From positions 1,632,001 to 1,696,000 of the forward strand of contig CM000150.2 in NCBI GenBank assembly GCA_000004695.1: a stretch of DNA of 64,000 nucleotides, in the 5' to 3' direction. Below the pieces are notes generated by a model. The model was given only the letters and a program-made list of their open reading frames with translations. It was not told the origin of the DNA and did no database searches. Position 1 is the stretch's first letter, and every line of letters starts with the position of its first letter. The position numbers were made by a program, and so were the translations under genes. This DNA comes from Dictyostelium discoideum. Its lineage: Eukaryota. Of this stretch, positions 1 through 61,319 are shown piece by piece.

Positions 1-773
1 ATATGGTCTTGTTACAATGGGTATGATTGGTAGTATGTATTATTATTATTTTAATTATTTATTTATATATATATTTTATTTATTTAAAAATTATTTATTA
101 ATTAAACTTTTTTTTTATTTATTTTTTAAAAAATTAATCAATTATTAAAAAAAAAAAGTACTTTATATGGTTACTAGAGTACCTAGATTCGTGACATGTT
201 CTTCTTATGATGTTTGTTCTTGTAAATTTGTTAATGATTGCAATGCCTTCATAAACGATAATTTATCATAGTAAATAAAATAAATTAAAACATATAATTG
301 TACAAAGCAAATTCCTATTTTTTCGTTTATTTAAAAATAAAACCAAAATATAAATTTTATTTTGGTTAATTTTTTTTTTTTTTTTTTTTTTCTAATCAAA
401 TAAATAAAAGATTAATTATAAATAATTTTTTATATGTGTTCAAATTTTATTTTTGTATTGGCAAAACTTATTAAAATAACTCGGAACATTGTCCCACTTA
501 GTTCAAAGGTTTTCTGTAATCAATAATGGCAATGGCACAGTGAGTGAAAGTTTCAAGCTTTCTTCAAACAAAATTACCCTTTCAATTTTTTGTATTTATA
601 GTAAATTCCCAGCCATTTTATTGTTTAATTAATGTTTTTTTAAAAATGTATACAATATTTAGTTATGATTCCAATTATTATATTAAGTTTCTTATATGCG
701 ACCAAAAATGTTTTTTCACCAAAAAAAATTTAAAAATGCATTGGAGCAAAATTAACAAAATTTCATAATAAGT

Positions 774-846
774 GCCTGGATGGCTCAGTAGGCAGAGCGA
801 GCGGCTGTTAACCGCTAGGTCCATGGTTCGATCCCATGTCTAGGCG
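774..846 (+). tRNA. tRNA-Asn (anticodon GTT)
   Basis: The sequence folds as a cloverleaf. The acceptor stem is GCCTGGA/TCTAGGC with one G:T pair. The anticodon stem is AGCGG/CCGCT and the loop is CTGTTAA, giving anticodon GTT. The T-loop is GGTTCGATCC. No CCA is encoded. Confidence 0.85.
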
Positions 847-876
847 ATAATTTTCCACCACAATTACACGGTTTAA

Positions 877-887
877 GGGTTCGATTC
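877..887 (+). promoter_or_regulatory. External B-box-like element (GGGTTCGATTC) about 31 bp downstream of tRNA-Asn
   Basis: The motif matches the pol III B-box consensus GGTTCGANTCC and lies outside the tRNA body. The same arrangement recurs downstream of the other two tRNA genes in the window. Confidence 0.6.
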
Positions 888-975
888 TGACCAAAATGAA
901 ACGGAGGTATTGAAAAAAAAATAAAATTAAAAAAAAAATAAACCTTCATCTATAACTAAGGTATCCCCCAATAAT

Positions 976-1136
976 ATATATTAAAGTAATATGATATATA
1001 ATATAGTTTAAAAAATTTAATACAATTGAATAATAAAAATAAAACCGTTTAACAAACACCGCCGAAAAGACACAAGTACATTCCTTGAAGGTCTGATCAC
1101 AGGTAAAAAAAAAAAAAAAATATATTAAAGTAATAT
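976..1136 (+). mobile_element. 5'-truncated non-LTR retroelement remnant (TRE3-like position) with poly(A) tail and 17-bp target-site duplication
   Basis: A direct repeat ATATATTAAAGTAATAT occurs at 976-992 and at 1120-1136. Between the copies lies about 127 bp that ends in a GC-richer core (CCGTTTAACAAACACCGCCGAAAAGACACAAG...GATCACAGGT) followed by A15-16 abutting the second repeat. The first repeat is 130 bp downstream of the tRNA-Asn 3' end (846). Confidence 0.5.
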
Positions 1137-1310: not shown

Positions 1311-2303
1311 ATGGATAATAATAATAACAATATTATTAATAATAATAATAATAATAACGAAAAAAATGAAATATTATTTTGGAAAGTTTATAGAAATGTT
1401 TATTTAAATAAACAAATTTTTACTCAATTGGAGAATGACTCAATTGAATATCAAAACCCAAAAAAGTATTATATTGATAATAGAATAAAGTTTAAAAATG
1501 TAAATTCATTAGAAAGTATGGTATATAAAAGGCAATTTAATCTTTTAGAATATAAGTTAAGAAATAATGAATATATCAACCTTAAACATGGAATTAGAGC
1601 ATTTGTTGATTTTATTTATGACGATTTTAATGAAAGAATAGAATTATTTAAATTATTTTTAGAGAAATATTTAGTAGCTGTCCAAGATTATGGAAAAATT
1701 GTAAGTGATGCAATTGATCTTAAAAGATACCAAGTTTTAAAAATATTATTAAATGAACCATACTGTTTTAAAATTGATAAAAGTTGTTATCGAAAAATTT
1801 TAGTTGACTATAAAGGTAGTCATCATCATCATAAAAATGAGGATTTAATTATACAATTAGTTAATAAACACACTACAGATCAAGTTAAATTAATGGCAAT
1901 CGATCAATATGATTCAATGTATCGTAAAACTGGCAGTAAAATTCTAATTAAAATTAAAATGGAAATTTTAATTTTAATTAGAATTTTAAATGTCGCTTTA
2001 AATCTTCCACCCTCGGATAAATATAATACTCGTTATTATTATTCTTATAGTATCTTAAGTACTTTTAAAACCTTGGATACAAGAATTCACAATAATTCAA
2101 ATCATACCAATTTTAATCATCATTTACAATTAATAAATTTAAAAGATAAATTATTGAATTTAAATTTCTATAAAAATGATTATAATGACACTTTTAGTTA
2201 TTATTGGTTAAATCAACTTTCAAACTTTAAAGGTTATAATAAATTATTAATACCTTTAATTTTATTACATTTTAAAATTTATTTTATTTATAAAAATATT
2301 AAA

Positions 2304-2352
<49 letters not shown>

Positions 2353-3778
2353 TTTTACCAGAAAACATTGAAAATGAAATTAAAGAAATTTTAGGTGAAG
2401 ATTATTTAATAGATTATGAATTTAAAGAAAAACAATTATTAAGGTTATTAATAATTGAAAGTCAATCAAAATCATTATATAGATTTTATTATGAAAGATA
2501 TAGTCAAACTATTGAACAAAACTTGATTACAAAATTTAAAGTACCAATTTATGAATCATCTAATGTTTTTGATGATTTACAAATATTGGCTAAACTTGGA
2601 TTTAATGAAAATCTCAATAGAATAATTCAATGTATAAATGATTTTATTAATGATCATAATGTTAGAATTTGTAAAAACTTTCATAAATATTTTGAAATAA
2701 TAAGATTTATTAGAAATTATATATTTAATAATTTTAATTGTAATGAAAATTATAGTAAATTAATTGAAGTAATGTCAATTAATGGTGTGGGATTAACAAT
2801 ACTTTATTTACCAAGTAAATGGAATTCTTATTTAAAATATTTTACTCTTGAACAATTTAAAAATGATAAAGTTTTAATTTCAGATAAACAAGTTATAAAA
2901 TGGTTAAAATCAATTGAAAAAAAAAAGAATAAAATGTTTTCATCAGTTTTATCAGAATATTATAAAAAAAGAAGAAATAATTTAATAGAGTTTAGTTGTA
3001 ATGAAATTGCTCAATATGCAATCAAAAAATTAGAGATTGGTAATTTTTCAAATAAATTCCCACCAATTAAATTTGATATTATCAAATGGTCAACCATTGA
3101 AAATCAAAATCCAATTTCAAATATTATTAATGAACTTTCTTTTCAAAATTACAACATTTTAATTGAATCTGATCAAGATAATAATAATATTGATATTGAT
3201 ATTGTTAAAAATAAAAAGAAAACAAATTTTATTATTCAATTAAATTATAACCTTTATAAATTAATTAATAATGATAATTATTCAGAAATTCGTAAATTTT
3301 TAATTCAAAATTTAATTAAAAGAATTTTAAAAATTAATGGTGGTAATGCTTTAAATCAAATATTTAAAACTACAAGTTTTAAAGATACTTTACAAAATTA
3401 TCCATTCACATTTTTTGAAACATTTATAAACTCTTTTAATAACTTTGAAATTGAAAATGTTATAATGTTTTTAAATAGTGGAATTGATTTCATAAAATAT
3501 CAATATGATTTTCAACTAGTTTGGAATAAAAAAGTCGATCAAGTTATAGACATTTACAAAAAAAAATATTCATTTGGTTTTAATTACACAAATATAATAA
3601 ATAATATTAAAAGTGAAGTGGTTTTAAATTTTATTAACTATTGGTTAACTCAAGATAAAATTCCATTCAATTCTGAAATTAATAAATTAATAGTAAATCA
3701 TTTATTTAAAAAGTTAATTCAAACTCAAGGTATTACAATTTATCAAGTTTCAAAAATTAGAAATTTAATATTAAATTT

Positions 3779-3816
<38 letters not shown>

Positions 3817-4454
3817 TACCAAATAATAATGATAAAATAATATTTTTAGAAGAAACAAATTTTCATACTTTTTTTTATCTTTATAATAAGACACCAAAGA
3901 TTTCACATTATATAGAGAGTACAGAGTATTCAATTTTTAATTTAAATTCAAATTCAGATGCAAGTTTATTTGATTTTCAATTTATTTATAAGGAATCATT
4001 TGAAAGATTAATTGAAATTTTAATGGAAAAGGATAATGGTAATGAGCCTACCAATAAAAAGGTAAATAATCAACTATTATACTTTTTAGTGATAAGAAGA
4101 ATTGATTTGTTTTTTAATCACCTTCAAACTATTAGAAAATTGGGATTGAATTTTAGATTTAGTAAATATTCAGAATTGATAAAAATTATTCAACATCAAC
4201 AATTTAGTGGAAATTCAAATGATTCTTTAAAAACTTTTATTAATGAATATAGATTAACAAATTCTAATATCACTGAACAATCAATTGCATCACAACTCTT
4301 AATTGAATCAGTAAAATTAAATAGTAAAGAAGAAATTATTAATTTCATTATTGAAAACTATCAACCAGAAAAAATAACTCTTCCATCTTCAACCATTGAT
4401 AATCCTTTAGTTCAAAAAATTTTAAAAAATTATCCAAATTTGTTGAAGTTTTAA
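1311..4454 (+). CDS. Hypothetical Asn-rich protein (1047 aa), paralogous N-terminus to the ankyrin-repeat gene at 36764-39736
   Basis: A single long ORF that opens with poly-N, then EILFWKVYRNVYLNKQIF. Poly-N (2300-2345) and poly-S (3781-3819) runs are present. A poly-T/A promoter-like region lies immediately upstream. Confidence 0.6.
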
Positions 4455-5374: not shown

Positions 5375-5504
5375 ATGAAATGTATATCAAATATAACATC
5401 AAGTAGCAGAAAACAAAAATTTTTAATTTTATTTATCCTTGTTGCAAGTTCTATATTGTTGATGTTTTATGATGAATTTAGTTTTATAACAGTATTTAAT
5501 AAAG

Positions 5505-5535
<31 letters not shown>

Positions 5536-7913
5536 CTATAGAACAAATCAATTTAAAGATAACGATAATATTTTTTACACTAATCGAATTTTAGAAGAAA
5601 CTAGGAATTCAGATGTTGTCATTTTTCTATGGGATCCATCATCAGAACGCGATGATTGGACAGGAATTTTAAAATCTAATAATTTAGTAACACAACAACA
5701 AATTGATGATTATAATAATAAAAAATCTTTATTTACTTCAACAACATCAACAACTTCTCATCCTTATACTAGTAGTAGAAGTAGTACTAGTACTAGTAGT
5801 AGAAGTAGTACTAGTACTAGTAGTAGAAGTAGTACTAGTGGAGGTAGAAGTAGTAGTGGAGGTAGTAGTACTAGTAGTGGAGGTAGTAGTACTAGTAGTG
5901 GAAGTAGTAGTACAACTAGTAGTAGAGGTAGTAGTACCACTAGTAGAAGTAGTAGTACTACTGGTATTAGAGGTGGTAGTAGTACAACTCAACAAACTGA
6001 AGTGGAAGCAGCAGCAGCAGTATCAGGTCAATTATCAATAGATTTTAATCAAAAATCACTATCAATAAAATTAAATGAAGTATTTAATGAAAAGAATAAA
6101 TGTTCATGTTCATGTAGATTTACAAATCTTCAAGAAGAGATTGTTGAGTCACATTTAATTTTATTTGATCCAGTTTATTTACATAAAGATAATTGGAAGA
6201 GATCACCATTAAAGTTACCAGAGAAACATTCACATCAAAAGTTTGGTTTATTTCATTATAACTCAAAGAGTCAATATTCAATACTCTCTAATAAACCATA
6301 TAATAACTTGATGGATATTGATATCTCTTACCTAAATAGTGATCATAATCTTGATATCACTTTAGCATGTCCACCCAATTCATCTTTTACCCTTGACGAC
6401 ACTTCAAAATTATTATTAAAAAAACACAAAGATTGGGATAAACGTAATAATTCTGCAATTTTCATTTCTTCAAATTGCGTAGATGGTTTATCATTATCAA
6501 GAACTGTATGTTTTTTTAAAAAAAAACAAATAATAACAATATAATAATATTAATTTATTTTTTTTTTTTTTTTATGTGATTTTTTAGAATTTAGTAAAAG
6601 AATTATCAAAAATTATTAAAATTGAATCATTAGGCAATTGTTTGAATGATAATACAGTTAATATTAAAAGTAAAGAAGAATTAGGATCAATTTATTCAAG
6701 AATTGAGTATAATATGGAAATTTATAAGAAAGCGAAATTTGTAATTTGTTTTGAGAATGAAAATTCAACAAACTATGTAACAGAGAAAGTTTATACTGCT
6801 TTATATGCTGGTGCAATACCAATTTGGATGGGTGCTAAAAATATTGATCAATATGTACCAACGGGTTCGATTATCAATGGAAATGAATTTAATAATATTA
6901 ATGAAATTGGTGAACATATAAAATCAATAATAGATGGTAAAATTGATTATAAAAGATATTTCAAATGGAAAGATGATAATGATAATCAATCATTAGAGAG
7001 TAAAGTTATTGATAAATTAAAACGTTGTATTAATACAGTTGATATGAAATGTAAAATTTGTGAGACCATTTATAAATCGATTGAGCAATCTGATAGGGAT
7101 TATCTATCATCAACTGTTGCTGCAAAGAATTATCATTATGTTTCAAACAATATTGGATATTATACACCCCAATTTGTGTCAATGAAAGGATTGGGTGACC
7201 ATATCTTTGTCAATAGGAATGAAGATACTTGTAAGAATTGTTTTAATCTTGATGATCATTATACCCTAATGGCATGGGTCAAGCCATCAACATTCTCTGA
7301 TCAGAGAATTATTGATAAGAATCATGCGGGAACAATTAGTGGATACAATTTCGATATTCAAAAGACATCAGGTGGTCGTGGTGTGGCTAGACTATGTGCG
7401 GGTACAGCATGTTTTGAATCCTTCAAGAGTATACCCAACGATTTATGGTCACATGTTGCTGTGGTGTTTAGTTGTAATAATTTAGATGTTCAAAAGAATC
7501 GTGTCACTTTTTATATAAATGGTGTGTTTAATGCAGAGTTTGATAATTTTAAACCAACTAAAATTAATGACTTCCCTTTGGTAATTGGTAAATCTGGTAA
7601 AAAAACTGAATCAACAAGTTATCATGGTATGATTGATGATATAATGATCTTTAATATCTCTCTAACCTCTGATGATATCAAATATGTACTCTCTTCAAAA
7701 CCAAATCTTTCCACCTTTAAATTTGCAAATGATCTTCAACTCTTTTATGATTTCGATTATAATCCAAATAATCCAAAATCACATGATCGTAATATAGTTC
7801 GTGATAAATCAATTTATAAAAATGATGGTACCTTTGCTAGTGGTTCAAGTGATGACTATTCTGAAAAAATAACTTCAATAAGTAAAGAAATATCTTTTAA
7901 TAAAAAATTATAA
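5375..7913 (+). CDS. GT10 alpha-1,3-fucosyltransferase-like type II membrane protein with Ser/Thr-rich stalk and C-terminal ConA/LamG-like domain; exons 5375..6505 and 6588..7913
   Basis: N-terminal TM anchor KFLILFILVASSILLMF. A 5760-5990 stalk repeat (SSRSSTSTS)n. The intron is GTATGT...TTTTAG (6506-6587) and keeps the frame in phase 0. The GT10 motif FVICFENENSTNYVTEKVYTALYAGAIPIWMGA is present. The C-terminal jelly-roll motifs are WSHVAVVF, YINGV and IDDIMIFNISLT. Confidence 0.7.
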
Positions 7914-56501: not shown

Positions 56502-57200
56502 ATGGCTGGTGATCACTCAACTGAATTACAGTTAAATCATACAGATAACATCACAACCAATACAAATAATACCTCCACAACCTCAACAACAAAAAACAAA
56601 AGTGCAAAAATCGACACACCTGAAAAACAAACCCCAACAAACCAACTCTCACTAAACAAAGGACTTGATAATCAATTAGATATCATTGCACCTCCATCAA
56701 TCACAAGACCACTCTCTTTCTTAGAAAAAAACAATAACACCATCAACATTAAGTGTTACTTTAATCAACCACACATCCTTGAAGAATTAACCTCTAAAGA
56801 TGACACAAGAATCCAACAAATTCACAAAAACATTCACAAACTCTTCGAAGATATACTGTCGCCATCAGCATTTAAAATAATTGGTGCAACTGCCTTCGTA
56901 AATTGCAACGTTGATAAATTAACTTCAATAATCAACCTTCAAAACCAACTTGCACTAAATATAGACAAACTCAATAATGAAATTTCACACAAAAGTGATT
57001 CTTCAAATAATAATAACGGGAAAAACTCATTATCAATGAGCAATCCAACCGATCCAACAATTGTACCACAAAAACCTCTACAATCCCAACCAAACAAACC
57101 AAGTGCACCAACTCCAAATACAATAAATACAAGAAGAAGCAGCAATGCCCTGACTACACAACCAGTCAATACTGGTGCTGCCAAACCTAGTAAGGTATGA
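56502..57200 (+). CDS. Retrotransposon ORF1 protein (232 aa) of the TRE3-like element
   Basis: An intact ORF whose stop overlaps the ORF2 ATG. It is T/N/P-rich and has no recognisable enzymatic motif. Confidence 0.55.
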   Translation: MAGDHSTELQLNHTDNITTNTNNTSTTSTTKNKSAKIDTPEKQTPTNQLSLNKGLDNQLDIIAPPSITRPLSFLEKNNNTINIKCYFNQPHILEELTSKDDTRIQQIHKNIHKLFEDILSPSAFKIIGATAFVNCNVDKLTSIINLQNQLALNIDKLNNEISHKSDSSNNNNGKNSLSMSNPTDPTIVPQKPLQSQPNKPSAPTPNTINTRRSSNALTTQPVNTGAAKPSKV

Positions 57201-58463
57201 GCTCAAAAATCAACTTTATAACATGGAATTGTAGAGGATTCACTGAAAACCCAAACAATCAACACAATTCCTACCAAAAAGCTGTTGACACACTACAACT
57301 ACTTATATCAAAACTTCCACCTCGTCCAACAATCTCAATACTCACTGAACTCAATTCATCACCATTACAACTTAAACATTATTTTCCCGATCACATCATC
57401 TCTGTCACCAAACGAGGAAATGGTGTAATCATCATTAACCATAACCCAAACACACTCAAACTCAAACACATATCAACAATTGATATTACCAATCAATCCC
57501 AAAACAATAAAGAAATTTCACACAAAAGTGATTCTTCAAATAATAATAACGGGAAAAACTCATTATCAATGAGCAATCCAACCATGGTAGAGCTATTTTA
57601 GCAGACGTTATATTTCCAAATCAATTACCAATTGGTATTCTTGGAATTTACGCACCAGCATCAAATAATACCATCAAAAAGAATTCATATGCAACTTCAC
57701 TACAAACACTTCTCCACAACCACTCAACAAACCCAATACCAAACCAATCCCAACATGTATCTATTATCGCAGGAGATTTCAACTCTATCCACAACGACAA
57801 TTCACTATAAGATGATATTATCCAATCCTACACATACCAACACCATTTAATTGATCAAGGTGAATTTAAAAACACTCCAACTCATACACATGGCAACAGA
57901 TTAGATAGAATATATACTCAATACAATAGAATAGACCCTGAAAATATATATACACAAGTCCACCAAATTCCATCTTCATTATCAGATCATAATCCAACCA
58001 TGAAGCAATCAATATTATCAATCATTTAATAACTAATCACAATAACACATCAATCAATCAATTTACAAACTGGTCAAAAGTAAAATCAAAAATTATTAAA
58101 ACTCTAAAAAACTATCAATATAACAAAGACAAACAAACTCAACGTTCAAAACAAATACTATTAGGAAAAGCAGCAAAATTCAAACATCTTGAAGAACAAT
58201 GCATCGCTGAATACAATATTATATGTAACAAAAACAAATTACATCAAAACCACACAAACATATTAAAAAAACATATAAATGGAGAAATACCTTGCAAGTA
58301 TCTATCAGCAATACTAAACAAAAGATCAAAACATGCAAAAATTGAATCAATCCAATATGGTAACATCATTACATCCGACCCCGACCAAATTGAAAATGCG
58401 TTTGTTGAATTCTACACAAATCTATATAGCTTACAAATATGTTGTCCAATTACTCACCAGCTC

Positions 58464-58910
58464 ATGCCAAACACATGGCCCATCATAAAAAATGAATATT
58501 TGAATGGTTTAGACTCACCATTTATACAAGATGAAGTTGAAGCTGCAATTAAAACCTGTAACCCCAACGAATCACCCGGTCCAGATGGCGTTACAAATGC
58601 TTTCTACTTTAATCATTTAAACCAAGTTAAACCAATTCTCACTACATTATTCTACGATATACTAGAAAATCCTCACCACATCACAACAGAATTCACCGAA
58701 GGTCTTATACACACAATATACAAGAAAGGCAACCCCTTACTCATATCAAATCGTCGTCCCATTACACTTCTAAACACTGATTACAAGATCCTCTCAAAAG
58801 TAATCAATGCACGTCTTCTGAGAATACTTCCTTTCATCATCAACAACAACCAAACTGGTTTCGTACCCCACAGATTCATCATAGACAACATCATCAACAT
58901 CAATGAATAA
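58464..58910 (+). CDS. Reverse-transcriptase fragment of the retrotransposon ORF2 (disrupted)
   Basis: Non-LTR RT motifs SPGPDG and RPITLLNTDYKILSKV. The frame is broken on both sides. Confidence 0.7.
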   Translation: MPNTWPIIKNEYLNGLDSPFIQDEVEAAIKTCNPNESPGPDGVTNAFYFNHLNQVKPILTTLFYDILENPHHITTEFTEGLIHTIYKKGNPLLISNRRPITLLNTDYKILSKVINARLLRILPFIINNNQTGFVPHRFIIDNIININE

Positions 58911-61169
58911 ATCAACTACCTCAAATCTAAAAACCTCCCTGGTATAATCACACTATTTGACTTCTTTAAAGCATTTGATTCTATCTCTCACCTTGTTTTA
59001 ATACTATCAAAAGAACATTAATTCATATTGGTATACCAATAAAATTAATAAATTTAATCCACAAGCTATTATTTGATTCACAAGCAAAAATTTCAATTAA
59101 TGGTAAAACCACCAGAAAATTCGATATTAAAAGAGGTGTAAAACAAGGTGACCCAATCTCAGCCACTTTATTTGTAATTGTAATTGAAATATTAGCAAGA
59201 ACAATAAATGCAGACAATACAATAATTGGATTACCAATTTCATCCAATCCACAAATTAAAATCAAATTTACCCAATTTGCAGACGAATCTACAACATACA
59301 ACATCAACTACGAACAACAACAATCAATCAAACATTTCGATAATTTATGTGCTAAAACATCATCATCATTAAATTTTGACAAAAGTGCAATAATAGAAAT
59401 CAACCCCCACAAAATCACTGATAAACACATAATAAACAACGTTCCACAATCAAAAAGAATACCAATAACCAAAAAAGATTAATCAGAAAGAGTCCTAGGC
59501 TATTTCTTTAATAATAATGGTTTACATAGGAAATTACCAGAAACAATGAAAACACTGAATAAATCATTAGTACTATGGAAAACTAGTGGCACACCAATAA
59601 CATATTTATCATACCTTGAAGAATTTACAAAAGATGAAGAAATTCAAATTAATAAATTAATCTCATGGTTTATGAATTCCGCAAATTCTGAATCACCAAC
59701 TCTCAATACCAATTCCATTGAAAACAACACATCAACCATCCATTCACGTGCAAAATTACCTTTGATGTGTTATGATAGATCATTAAAACCATTAAAAGAA
59801 GGTGGTTGGGGTATGTGGAATATACAATTACGAAAAGTTGCTCAAAAGAATTGGATATACAACAGATTTTTACAAATGCATATATCTGCAAACAATTCAA
59901 TATACATGATAAGTTGGATGGATCAAATCATCAACAAATCAATCTCTTCTCCATACCTTATAAAAATTAAAAAAGAATGGGAAAACTATGCAACTCAAAT
60001 TGGACATCTAAAAGATAAAGTTAAAATCCTACAACCAATATTAATAAAAAATCAAACCTCTCAAACATTAACCACAAATAATATTCCACTACCACCAACA
60101 CTCAAAGAAATCTACTCGACAATACTCAACAATCACCAATGTAAATCAAAAGACTATATTGGCAAGAAATATTCAGATCTACTTCTTACTTCGCACCAAC
60201 AATTAATACAACTATTATGGAAATACACATACGACCAACTATTTGTCAAAATTCAAAAATTAAAAGATCCAAAAGGCCGTGATACAATGCAAAGATTCCA
60301 TGCTAGATGTCTTCCGATTAATCACCTACACAACAAAGTTTGCCCCATTTGCAACAATGAAATGAATAATGATCCCTATGGTCATTTGTTTTTCAATTGT
60401 CAGCACACAATCAACTTCATAAACCACGACAAATTAAAATATTTTATATATAAAAATTGCAATGGAAACAAAAACTGGTCACTAACAAAAAACCAAACAA
60501 CAAAATTATACACTCATTTATAAACCACAAACAAACAACAAAGCATTTAAACCAGATCCAACTATCATGAATGGGGGGAGGAGACAGGGGACAGGGGACA
60601 GGGGACAGGGGGGGAGATTTGAAGTTTTTTTTTAAATTTTTTAGTCAGTTGCAAATACAAATACATTGGCATATAATAAATAAAACTATTGATTGGAGTG
60701 AAATAAATAATCCAATAAATAAAAGAGAAAAAAAAAAAAATTCCGAATGAATAAATAAAATAAATCAACTTCCATTAATATTAATATTAAAGAAAAAAAA
60801 AAATTAAATATATAATTCCAACAAACAATTATTTTTAAAAATTAAAGAGTGGAAGCTAAATTTGGAATGTTAAAAGATTTTTGTGTCAGATTTTTTATTA
60901 AAAAAAAAAATTAATTTAATAATAAATTGTATATTAAAAAAAACATGACCACCAATGATTATGAAAACGTTTTAAAAAAAACACGTATTTAAAAATGAAA
61001 AATTATCTTGAAAAAATGAGTTTTTTAACAAAATTATGTGACTTTTTTTAAGTTTTGGCATAGGGTTTCCTTTTTAGATTAACAAAAAATATTGCAAAGT
61101 TGGTTATATTCAATAACAATATTAAAAATGGTTAATTTATCTTAAAAAATCGATAAAAAATTAATAATG

Positions 61170-61234
<65 letters not shown>

Positions 61235-61319
61235 ATAAAAAAAAAAAAAAAAGAACAATCAGTTTCAAAAATAATAAATAAATTAAATAAATCAAATAAA
61301 TAAATAAAAAAATAAAAAA

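What the first reader, a model, noticed from the sequence alone, without database searches (positions are those of the whole stretch)
976..1136. Tiny poly(A)-tailed retroelement relic with a perfect 17-bp target-site duplication 130 bp downstream of tRNA-Asn
The direct repeat ATATATTAAAGTAATAT (976-992 and 1120-1136) brackets about 127 bp that ends in a GC-richer unique core plus A15-16 directly abutting the second repeat. This is the classic footprint of a severely 5'-truncated non-LTR retrotransposition event. Its distance from the tRNA matches TRE3-type targeting. It would be a second, independent tRNA-targeted insertion in this window.
Basis: seen in the sequence. Interest (0 to 1): 0.5.

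Follow-up and report, generated by a model that had tools for sequence, protein, structure and literature searches.

The report
Truncated TRE3 retrotransposon stub behind tRNA-Asn
The 144-bp feature is a dead, severely shortened copy (the last 111 bases plus the poly(A) tail) of a known Dictyostelium tRNA-gene-targeting retrotransposon of the TRE3 group, flanked by the duplicated target site; it is an ordinary relic of a well-described process.

Summary
ATATATTAAAGTAATAT occurs exactly twice in the window, at 976-992 and 1120-1136. The copies bracket 127 bp that end in A15-16.

Bases 994-1104 are 110/111 identical to the last 111 nt of the 3' UTR of full-length non-LTR retrotransposons in a D. 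discoideum assembly (L006). They are about 96% identical to L007, about 90% to a D. cf. discoideum copy and about 77% to a D. citrinum copy.

The parent elements encode ORF1 and an ORF2 with an endonuclease domain followed by a reverse transcriptase domain. They end in ...CACAGGT(A)n and carry 14-18 bp target-site duplications. [quoted passage not shown]

The window copy has the same orientation. It lies 129 bp past tRNA-Asn and 98 bp past an external B box.

The parent is about 4.7 kb long and is the most divergent TRE3 ORF2 found here. That points to TRE3-C, but no named reference sequence was available.

The copy starts exactly at the 3' edge of an internal A-tract, after one extra G. No empty-site allele could be retrieved. 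This is a known kind of feature and of low interest.

The parts
773..847 (+). tRNA-Asn (anticodon GTT), the Pol III gene that served as the targeting landmark. Its internal B box GGTTCGATCCC is at 825-835.
   Evidence: ARAGORN; Rfam RF00005 64.3 bits; B-box motif position
878..888 (+). External B box (ex-B) GGTTCGATTCT, 31 bp after the tRNA end. The insertion site begins 98 bp downstream of its start.
   Evidence: Motif scan and sequence. Equivalent ex-B boxes follow tRNA-Lys in L001 and tRNA-Pro in L006. The role of ex-B in TRE3 targeting is taken from PMC5911963.
976..992 (+). Target-site duplication, upstream copy (ATATATTAAAGTAATAT)
993..993 (+). A single G at the 5' junction. It is absent from the target and from D. 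discoideum parent copies, which have A here. It could be an untemplated or cap-derived addition, or a source variant.
   Evidence: Alignments
994..1104 (+). The terminal 111-nt 3' UTR module of a TRE3-family non-LTR retrotransposon (tentatively TRE3-C), ending in the family's ...TCACAGGT terminus
   Evidence: 110/111 identical to L006; 78/79 identical to L005 in the BLASTN match, with a 16-nt deletion in L005; 85.7% to L002, E=7e-34; 77.5% to D. citrinum L001, E=2e-22
1105..1119 (+). Poly(A) tail (A15; A16 if base 1120 is counted)
   Evidence: Parent copies carry A15-A25 tails at the same position.
1120..1136 (+). Target-site duplication, downstream copy

Best explanation
This is the product of one target-primed reverse transcription event by a TRE3-group non-LTR retrotransposon, most likely TRE3-C.

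Proposed sequence of events:
- The element's machinery was directed about 100 bp downstream of a B box, here the external B box of tRNA-Asn. This step is inferred from the published targeting rule.
- The endonuclease nicked the bottom strand at the left edge of what became the duplication (975/976).
- The exposed 3' end primed on the RNA's poly(A) tail.
- Reverse transcriptase copied only the last 111 nt of the 3' UTR and stopped on reaching the element's internal A30-40 tract.
- The cDNA end was joined to the top strand, which had been cut 16-17 bp downstream. Repair produced the 16-17 bp duplication.

The result is a 127-bp, promoterless and ORF-less relic in the same orientation as the tRNA. 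It cannot move again and has no demonstrated function.

Shown here: the identity of the sequence, its boundaries, its orientation, its distances, and the behaviour of sister copies. Inferred: the order of nicking, stalling at the A-tract, and the TFIIIC/B-box dependence.
For: 1. Homology. Bases 994-1104 match the 3'-terminal module of full-length elements: L006 110/111, L007 96%, L005 78/79 in the BLASTN match, L002 E=7e-34, and D. citrinum L001 E=2e-22.
2. Continuity with coding sequence. In those loci the module is contiguous with ORF2. The layout is ORF2 stop, then GTAGTAG(T), then an internal A run of about 31-40 nt in the loci checked, then the module, then poly(A). ORF2 has Exo_endo_phos at residues 8-211 followed by RVT_1 at 493-737.
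3. Sister copies behave as TRE3. Their duplications are ACAATCTAAACAAA (L005), AGACAACATAGCAC (L006) and GTTAGTACTAGATGATTT (L001). They start 72, 69 and 84 bp after tRNA-Leu, tRNA-Pro and tRNA-Lys, in the tRNA's orientation, and 90-105 bp from the internal B box.
4. The window copy starts 98 bp from ex-B, in the same orientation and 129 bp after the tRNA. This lies within the published 40-150 bp window and within the 14-305 bp range given for TRE3-C.
5. Even shorter stubs of the same terminus exist: GGT+A24 with a 16-bp duplication in L001, and CACCGCTTTTAGGT+A14 in L007.
6. A repeat with an abutting poly(A) is rare by chance, 0.02 per shuffled window.
Against: - No empty-site allele was obtained, so the insertion was not seen as a presence/absence polymorphism.
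- The subfamily name rests on two indirect arguments. One is element length: about 4.69 kb plus tail, against published consensus lengths of 4734 bp (TRE3-C), 5229 bp (TRE3-A) and 5279 bp (TRE3-B). The other is ORF2 divergence. Neither is a comparison with a named reference sequence.
- The exact coincidence of the 5' end with the internal A-tract, and the extra G, are not explained by random 5' truncation. They leave room for a short-template variant of the mechanism.
Confidence: 0.93

Rival explanations
1. The 111-nt post-A-tract module is mobilised as a unit of its own. A short, capped and polyadenylated transcript would start at the end of the internal A-tract and be retrotransposed in trans by TRE3 proteins. 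That would make it a SINE-like hitch-hiker rather than the aborted copy of a full-length RNA.
For: The 5' end coincides to the nucleotide with the 3' edge of the internal A-tract. An extra G sits at the junction (993); in LINE-1 such a G is attributed to reverse transcription of the cap (own knowledge). The 'ORF2 stop, A-tract, module, A-tail' architecture is conserved in three species, as if the module were appended behind an older tail.
Against: There is only one such copy in the 64-kb window. The other truncated copies of the family do not share its 5' end. Two of them also begin at A runs (L005 and L006), which suggests that A-tracts are general truncation or joining points. Still shorter stubs exist, with 3 nt and 14 nt of the terminus. 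There is no Pol III A or B box in the insert, no Rfam match, and only a weak consensus fold with one compensatory pair.
Confidence: 0.05
2. A longer or full-length TRE3 copy was inserted here and later lost its 5' 4.5 kb through an internal deletion, for example recombination or slippage between A runs.
For: The family has several long A runs: in the 5' UTR, before ORF1 and in the 3' UTR. These could mediate deletions. One copy (L005) carries a 16-nt internal deletion in the module.
Against: The upstream duplication abuts the module directly, with no residual A run and no 5' sequence. A deletion would have had to end exactly at the element/target junction. The duplication is perfect and the module is 99% identical to an intact copy, so there has been little time for secondary events.
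Confidence: 0.02
3. The repeat is a chance match in AT-rich intergenic DNA, and the A run is ordinary Dictyostelium low-complexity sequence.
For: Direct repeats of 17 nt or more within 400 bp arise about 1.3 times per shuffled window. A runs are very common in the window.
Against: Homology to a retrotransposon 3' end with E values of 1e-22 to 1e-35. The ends of that homology coincide exactly with the repeat and the tail. The composite signature occurs 0.02 times per shuffle.
Confidence: 0.005

Closest known systems
Dictyostelium discoideum TRE3 elements (TRE3-A/Tdd-3, -B, -C, -D), probably TRE3-C
   Same: The sequence is the 3' terminus of an element with ORF1 and an ORF2 containing an endonuclease domain, a reverse transcriptase domain and a zinc-finger-like motif. 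It has an oligo(A) tail and a target-site duplication. It sits downstream of a tRNA gene, in the tRNA's orientation, about 100 bp from a B box. The parent's length of about 4.7 kb matches the published TRE3-C consensus of 4734 bp.
   Different: It is only a 127-bp stub with no coding capacity. The subfamily name was not checked against a named reference sequence. The 129 bp from the tRNA end is at the far side of the 40-150 bp window, because the external rather than the internal B box appears to have been used.
5'-truncated LINE-1 insertions in mammals
   Same: The same footprint: 3' end present, poly(A) tail, flanking duplication of about 7-20 bp, an abrupt 5' end, and occasionally an extra nucleotide at the 5' junction.
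   Different: Targeting is to Pol III genes rather than to loose TTTT/AA sites. The truncation here coincides with an internal homopolymer tract of the element.
SINEs and other non-autonomous retroposons that share a LINE 3' tail
   Same: A short unit carrying only the partner LINE's 3' end and an A tail.
   Different: There is no internal Pol III promoter, no evidence of a multi-copy family with a common 5' end, and the sequence is contiguous with ORF2 in the parent elements.

Membership tests
TRE3 (tRNA-gene-targeted non-LTR retroelements integrating 3' of tRNA genes) | The sequence belongs to a non-LTR element whose ORF2 carries an APE endonuclease, then a reverse transcriptase, then a zinc finger | tested here: met
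   The module is contiguous with ORF2 in L002, L005, L006 and L007. Pfam finds Exo_endo_phos at 8-211 and RVT_1 at 493-737 in P0019. A C-x2-C...H-x4-C motif (CKICNKRFTDPYLHLFIDC) is seen in the L001 ORF.
TRE3 (tRNA-gene-targeted non-LTR retroelements integrating 3' of tRNA genes) | Integration about 40-150 bp downstream of a tRNA gene | tested here: met
   The duplication starts 129 bp after tRNA-Asn. Sister copies start 69-84 bp after their tRNAs. In L004 the element's inferred 5' end (1910) lies 131 bp after tRNA-Ser. The rule is taken from PMC5911963.
TRE3 (tRNA-gene-targeted non-LTR retroelements integrating 3' of tRNA genes) | Same transcriptional orientation as the tRNA gene | tested here: met
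   The tRNA is on the + strand and the poly(A) is at the distal (+) end. The same holds in L001, L004, L005 and L006.
TRE3 (tRNA-gene-targeted non-LTR retroelements integrating 3' of tRNA genes) | Position about 100 bp downstream of an internal or external B box | tested here: met
   98 bp from ex-B (878) and 151 bp from the internal B box (825). Sister copies lie 90-105 bp from their internal B boxes.
TRE3 (tRNA-gene-targeted non-LTR retroelements integrating 3' of tRNA genes) | 3' oligo(A) tail and a flanking target-site duplication | tested here: met
   A15-16 tail and a 16-17 bp perfect duplication. Sister copies have 14-18 bp duplications.
TRE3-C subfamily specifically | Nucleotide identity to the TRE3-C reference consensus | not testable with these tools
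   No named reference sequence was reachable. Indirect support 1: the parent is about 4.69 kb plus tail (5' UTR 221-222 nt; ATG to module end about 4467 nt), against published lengths of 4734 (C), 5229 (A) and 5279 (B). Indirect support 2: it is the most divergent TRE3 ORF2 here, 34% identical to the window's other TRE3. That fits the paper's remark that TRE3-C is the outlier.
SINE-like non-autonomous retroposon | Internal Pol III promoter (A and B boxes) or another own promoter | tested here: not met
   No A- or B-box-like motif in 993-1104 (the motif scan finds B boxes only at 825 and 878). No Rfam family matches.
SINE-like non-autonomous retroposon | Many genomic copies sharing the same 5' end | not testable with these tools
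   Only the window and seven loci could be scanned, and they hold one such copy. No whole-genome search of a Dictyostelium assembly was available.

The most novel reading that the evidence does not exclude
The 111-nt module behind the internal A-tract of this TRE3 family would be a separately transcribed, capped mini-template that is retrotransposed on its own. The stub behind tRNA-Asn would then be a full-length copy of that mini-element, with the extra G reflecting its cap. This would be a SINE-like parasite, or a 3' module promoter, in a TRE3 element.
Probability: 0.05. Interest if true: 0.45.

Novelty: already known. Interest (0 to 1): 0.12.

Why it matters
It matters little beyond annotation. 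The stub marks one more use of a tRNA gene as a safe landing site by TRE3 elements, here apparently through the external B box.

At 99% identity to an intact copy and with a perfect duplication, it is probably a recent event and could serve as a strain marker.

The only mildly interesting point is mechanistic. In this family the 5' ends of truncated copies, including this one, fall at A runs of the element, and stubs of only 3-14 nt plus poly(A) exist. A genome-wide census of these ends could show how reverse transcription aborts, or how 5' ends are joined, in an extremely AT-rich genome.

Tried and rejected
- Rfam scan of 600-1400 at E up to 10 found only the tRNA, so the core is not a known ncRNA.
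- The core has no second copy in the window and does not match the window's other TRE3.
- Empty-site search. Exact-product look-ups failed for the neighbouring ORFs 1311-4454 and 5375-6544 and for the small ORF 544-768. A protein search with the non-repetitive N-terminus of the neighbour gene found nothing. The full-length search was swamped by low-complexity words and returned only two D. citrinum proteins.
- The D. citrinum locus L001 has a different tRNA (Lys, opposite strand) upstream of the similar gene, so it is not an empty-site comparator.
- Two metagenome scans, one for the flank and one for the core, found nothing.
- Naming the subfamily. The AX4 protein P0135 is not in the gene-position index. 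Literature searches for core sequence strings and for DDB gene IDs found nothing. The Glöckner 2001 paper is not held, and the supplementary RT alignment of PMC5006619 is an image.
- Consensus RNA fold of the module: -6 kcal/mol with one compensatory pair, so there is no support for a conserved structure.
- L004 turned out to lack the 3' end of the element.
- I first recalled TRE3 as lying tail-to-tail with the tRNA. The literature and five loci show the same orientation as the tRNA instead.

Full report
**Observation**

The window is Dictyostelium-like DNA with 22% G+C. ARAGORN places tRNA-Asn(GTT) at 773-847 on the + strand, and Rfam agrees with 64 bits.

The 17-mer ATATATTAAAGTAATAT lies at 976-992 and 1120-1136. 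It has no other exact copy in the window, and the next best match has two mismatches. The repeat cannot be extended on either side.

Between the two copies lie 127 bp (993-1119). They end in ...TCACAGGT followed by an A run at 1105-1120. The last A of that run can belong either to the tail or to the repeat, so the tail is A15-16 and the duplication is 16-17 bp.

The repeat alone is not remarkable. Dinucleotide shuffles within 500-nt blocks give about 1.3 non-low-complexity direct repeats of at least 17 nt within 40-400 bp per window. A repeat of at least 15 nt abutted by at least 12 A arises only 0.02 times per shuffle, and the real window contains exactly one, this one.

**What it is**

A protein search with the neighbouring ORF returned a D. 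citrinum protein whose locus I fetched as L001. BLASTN of the window against L001 gave an unexpected match: window 992-1120 against L001 3268-3146 on the minus strand, 77.5% identical, E=2e-22.

Reading that region shows a 5'-truncated non-LTR retrotransposon 84 bp downstream of a tRNA-Lys. It has these features:
- the C-terminal 472 codons of an ORF2, with a CKIC...H...C zinc-finger-like motif;
- a 3' UTR of the form stop, an A-tract, about 130 nt, then poly(A);
- its own 18-bp duplication, GTTAGTACTAGATGATTT.

That ORF is 99.6% identical to P0018 and 56% identical to P0019 and P0020. These were hits from a search started with the window's other retroelement.

Loci carrying P0020 (D. cf. discoideum, L002) and three D. 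discoideum members of the P0019 cluster (L005, L006, L007, all from GCA_054883475.1) share one architecture. After the ORF2 stop come GTAGTAG(T), an internal A run (about 31-40 nt in L002, L005, L006 and L007), a module of about 110 nt ending in CACAGGT, and the poly(A) tail.

Identity of window 994-1104 to those modules:
- L006: 110 of 111 positions; the only difference is T for G at 1077.
- L007: 96%.
- L005: 78/79 in the BLASTN match; the 14 bases beyond a 16-nt deletion in L005 read as identical in the alignment.
- L002: 85.7% by BLASTN, E=7e-34.

The homology begins one base after the upstream repeat and ends at the poly(A) that abuts the downstream repeat. The feature is therefore the 3'-terminal 111 nt plus tail of this retrotransposon family, flanked by a target-site duplication.

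**The parent family behaves as TRE3**

ORF1 (290 codons) and ORF2 (1147 codons) overlap by one base at TAATG. ORF2 has an endonuclease domain at residues 8-211 and a reverse transcriptase domain at 493-737.

| Locus | tRNA gene | Target-site duplication | Duplication start after tRNA end | Distance from internal B box |
|---|---|---|---|---|
| L005 | tRNA-Leu | ACAATCTAAACAAA (14 bp) | 72 bp | 93 bp |
| L006 | tRNA-Pro | AGACAACATAGCAC (14 bp) | 69 bp | 90 bp |
| L001 | tRNA-Lys | GTTAGTACTAGATGATTT (18 bp) | 84 bp | 105 bp |

All three copies lie in the tRNA's orientation. In L004 the element's 5' end lies 131 bp after tRNA-Ser.

The literature gives the same rule. [quoted passage not shown] They are positioned relative to either the internal B box or an external B box that most D. 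discoideum tRNA genes carry (PMC5911963; PMC5006619).

In the window the internal B box is at 825 and an external B box, GGTTCGATTCT, is at 878. The duplication starts 151 bp from the former and 98 bp from the latter. The geometry fits ex-B-directed TRE3 integration, and the poly(A) is on the tRNA's strand at the distal end, as required.

**Which TRE3**

No named reference sequence could be reached, so the assignment is indirect.
- The true 5' end appears to be GAAAAACATATCC..., because two independent copies start there (L004 at 1910, L007 at 1280). That gives a 5' UTR of 221-222 nt.
- From the ATG to the end of the module is about 4467 nt, so the element is about 4.69 kb plus its tail.
- Table 1 of PMC5006619 lists consensus lengths of 5229 bp (TRE3-A), 5279 bp (TRE3-B) and 4734 bp (TRE3-C), with a partial TRE3-D.
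- This family is also the most divergent TRE3 ORF2 relative to the window's other TRE3: 34% identity, against 43% for the P0010 family. That agrees with the paper's remark that TRE3-C is the outlier.

I therefore call it TRE3-C tentatively, at about 60%.

**The 5' end**

The element-derived sequence starts at 994. That is at most one A into the internal A-tract, and it is preceded by a G (993) that is neither target nor D. discoideum element sequence. So the truncation lies exactly at the 3' edge of the A-tract.

The two other 5'-shortened copies I could read also begin at A runs. L005 begins at the 5' UTR A run, where the junction is blurred by A-rich microhomology. L006 begins at the A run just before ORF1.

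Still shorter stubs of the same terminus exist:
- GGT+A24 with a 16-bp duplication, ACAGCATTTCTCACCA, inside another TRE3 fragment in L001;
- CACCGCTTTTAGGT+A14 directly behind the tail of the L007 element.

All matches to AGGT+A10 in the window and in the fetched loci are such termini. Severe 5' truncation is therefore common in this family, and A runs look like preferred stop or joining points.

The most economical mechanism is target-primed reverse transcription that aborted at the internal A-tract. The extra G would then be an untemplated addition. I cannot exclude that the template was a short capped RNA beginning at that point; this is the novel case, at about 5%.

**Rivals**

- Chance is excluded by the homology.
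- A later internal deletion of a longer copy would have had to end precisely at the element/target junction and leave no A run. I rate it about 2%.
- A SINE-like unit lacks a promoter (no A or B box in the insert, no Rfam match) and shows no evidence of multiple copies with a common 5' end. Only about 120 kb could be scanned.
- A consensus fold of the module across four sequences is weak, at -6 kcal/mol with one compensatory pair. No structural claim is made.

**Age and function**

Identity of 110/111 to an intact-looking copy, together with a perfect duplication, suggests a recent event. The copy has no ORF and no promoter, and it cannot transpose. It adds 144 bp between the tRNA gene and the start of the downstream ORF at 1311. 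No effect on either can be inferred from sequence.

**What could not be done**

No empty-site allele was found. The gene-position index did not return the neighbouring genes. The last protein search found nothing, and the metagenome scans were empty. The D. citrinum locus has a different tRNA at the corresponding place, so it is not informative.

**Verdict**

This is an ordinary dead copy of a known retrotransposon family at its known kind of target. Novelty: already known. Interest: low.

Noticed in passing
window 56380-61240 (+), behind tRNA-Thr 56222-56293: A degenerate TRE3 of a different family, 80-95% identical at the protein level to P0001-P0008 and 34% identical in ORF2 to the stub's parent. 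It begins roughly 90-130 bp after tRNA-Thr, which has an ex-B box at about 56323. ORF1 is 56502-57200. ORF2 is broken by several frameshifts and stops. A long 3' UTR ends in an A run of about 55 nt at 61176-61232. Its exact ends and its duplication were not determined.
   Followed up: partly
window 54052-54294: The first 69 bp of an intron-containing tRNA (anticodon GTA; ARAGORN reports 'tRNA-???' at 54235-54318), plus 8 bp of its upstream flank, are duplicated with one mismatch. The two copies flank a 105-bp insert ending in ...CCTGGACCGGT-A8-T-A5. This looks like a poly(A)-tailed insertion into a tRNA gene with an unusually long duplication. The insert matched none of the fetched TRE loci.
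   Followed up: partly
L001 3076-3019 (minus strand), D. citrinum: A minimal retro-insertion consisting of only GGT plus A24, flanked by a perfect 16-bp duplication ACAGCATTTCTCACCA. It sits inside another TRE3 ORF2 fragment that lies in tandem behind the first element.
   Followed up: partly
L007 5982-6010, D. discoideum: Directly after the poly(A) tail of a full-length element comes CACCGCTTTTAGGT plus A14. This looks like a second, internally collapsed copy of the same 3' module. It may be a template-switch product or a tandem mini-insertion.
   Followed up: no
L005 2389-2430 and L006 1475-1500: The 5' junctions of two further copies of the family fall at A runs of the element. Together with the window copy, this suggests that A-tracts are preferred truncation or joining points.
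   Followed up: partly
window 1311-4454 (+): A 1047-codon ORF next to the stub. Its non-repetitive N-terminal 307 residues found no relative at E<=1e-10 in the 5.8-billion-protein collection. The full-length query found only two D. citrinum proteins. Its exact product is not in the gene-position index.
   Followed up: no
L007 1-1278: A tandem pile-up in which two partial copies of another TRE family (P0010-like, ORF2 of 1059 aa) precede the element. The element is inserted immediately after the poly(A) tail of the second copy.
   Followed up: no
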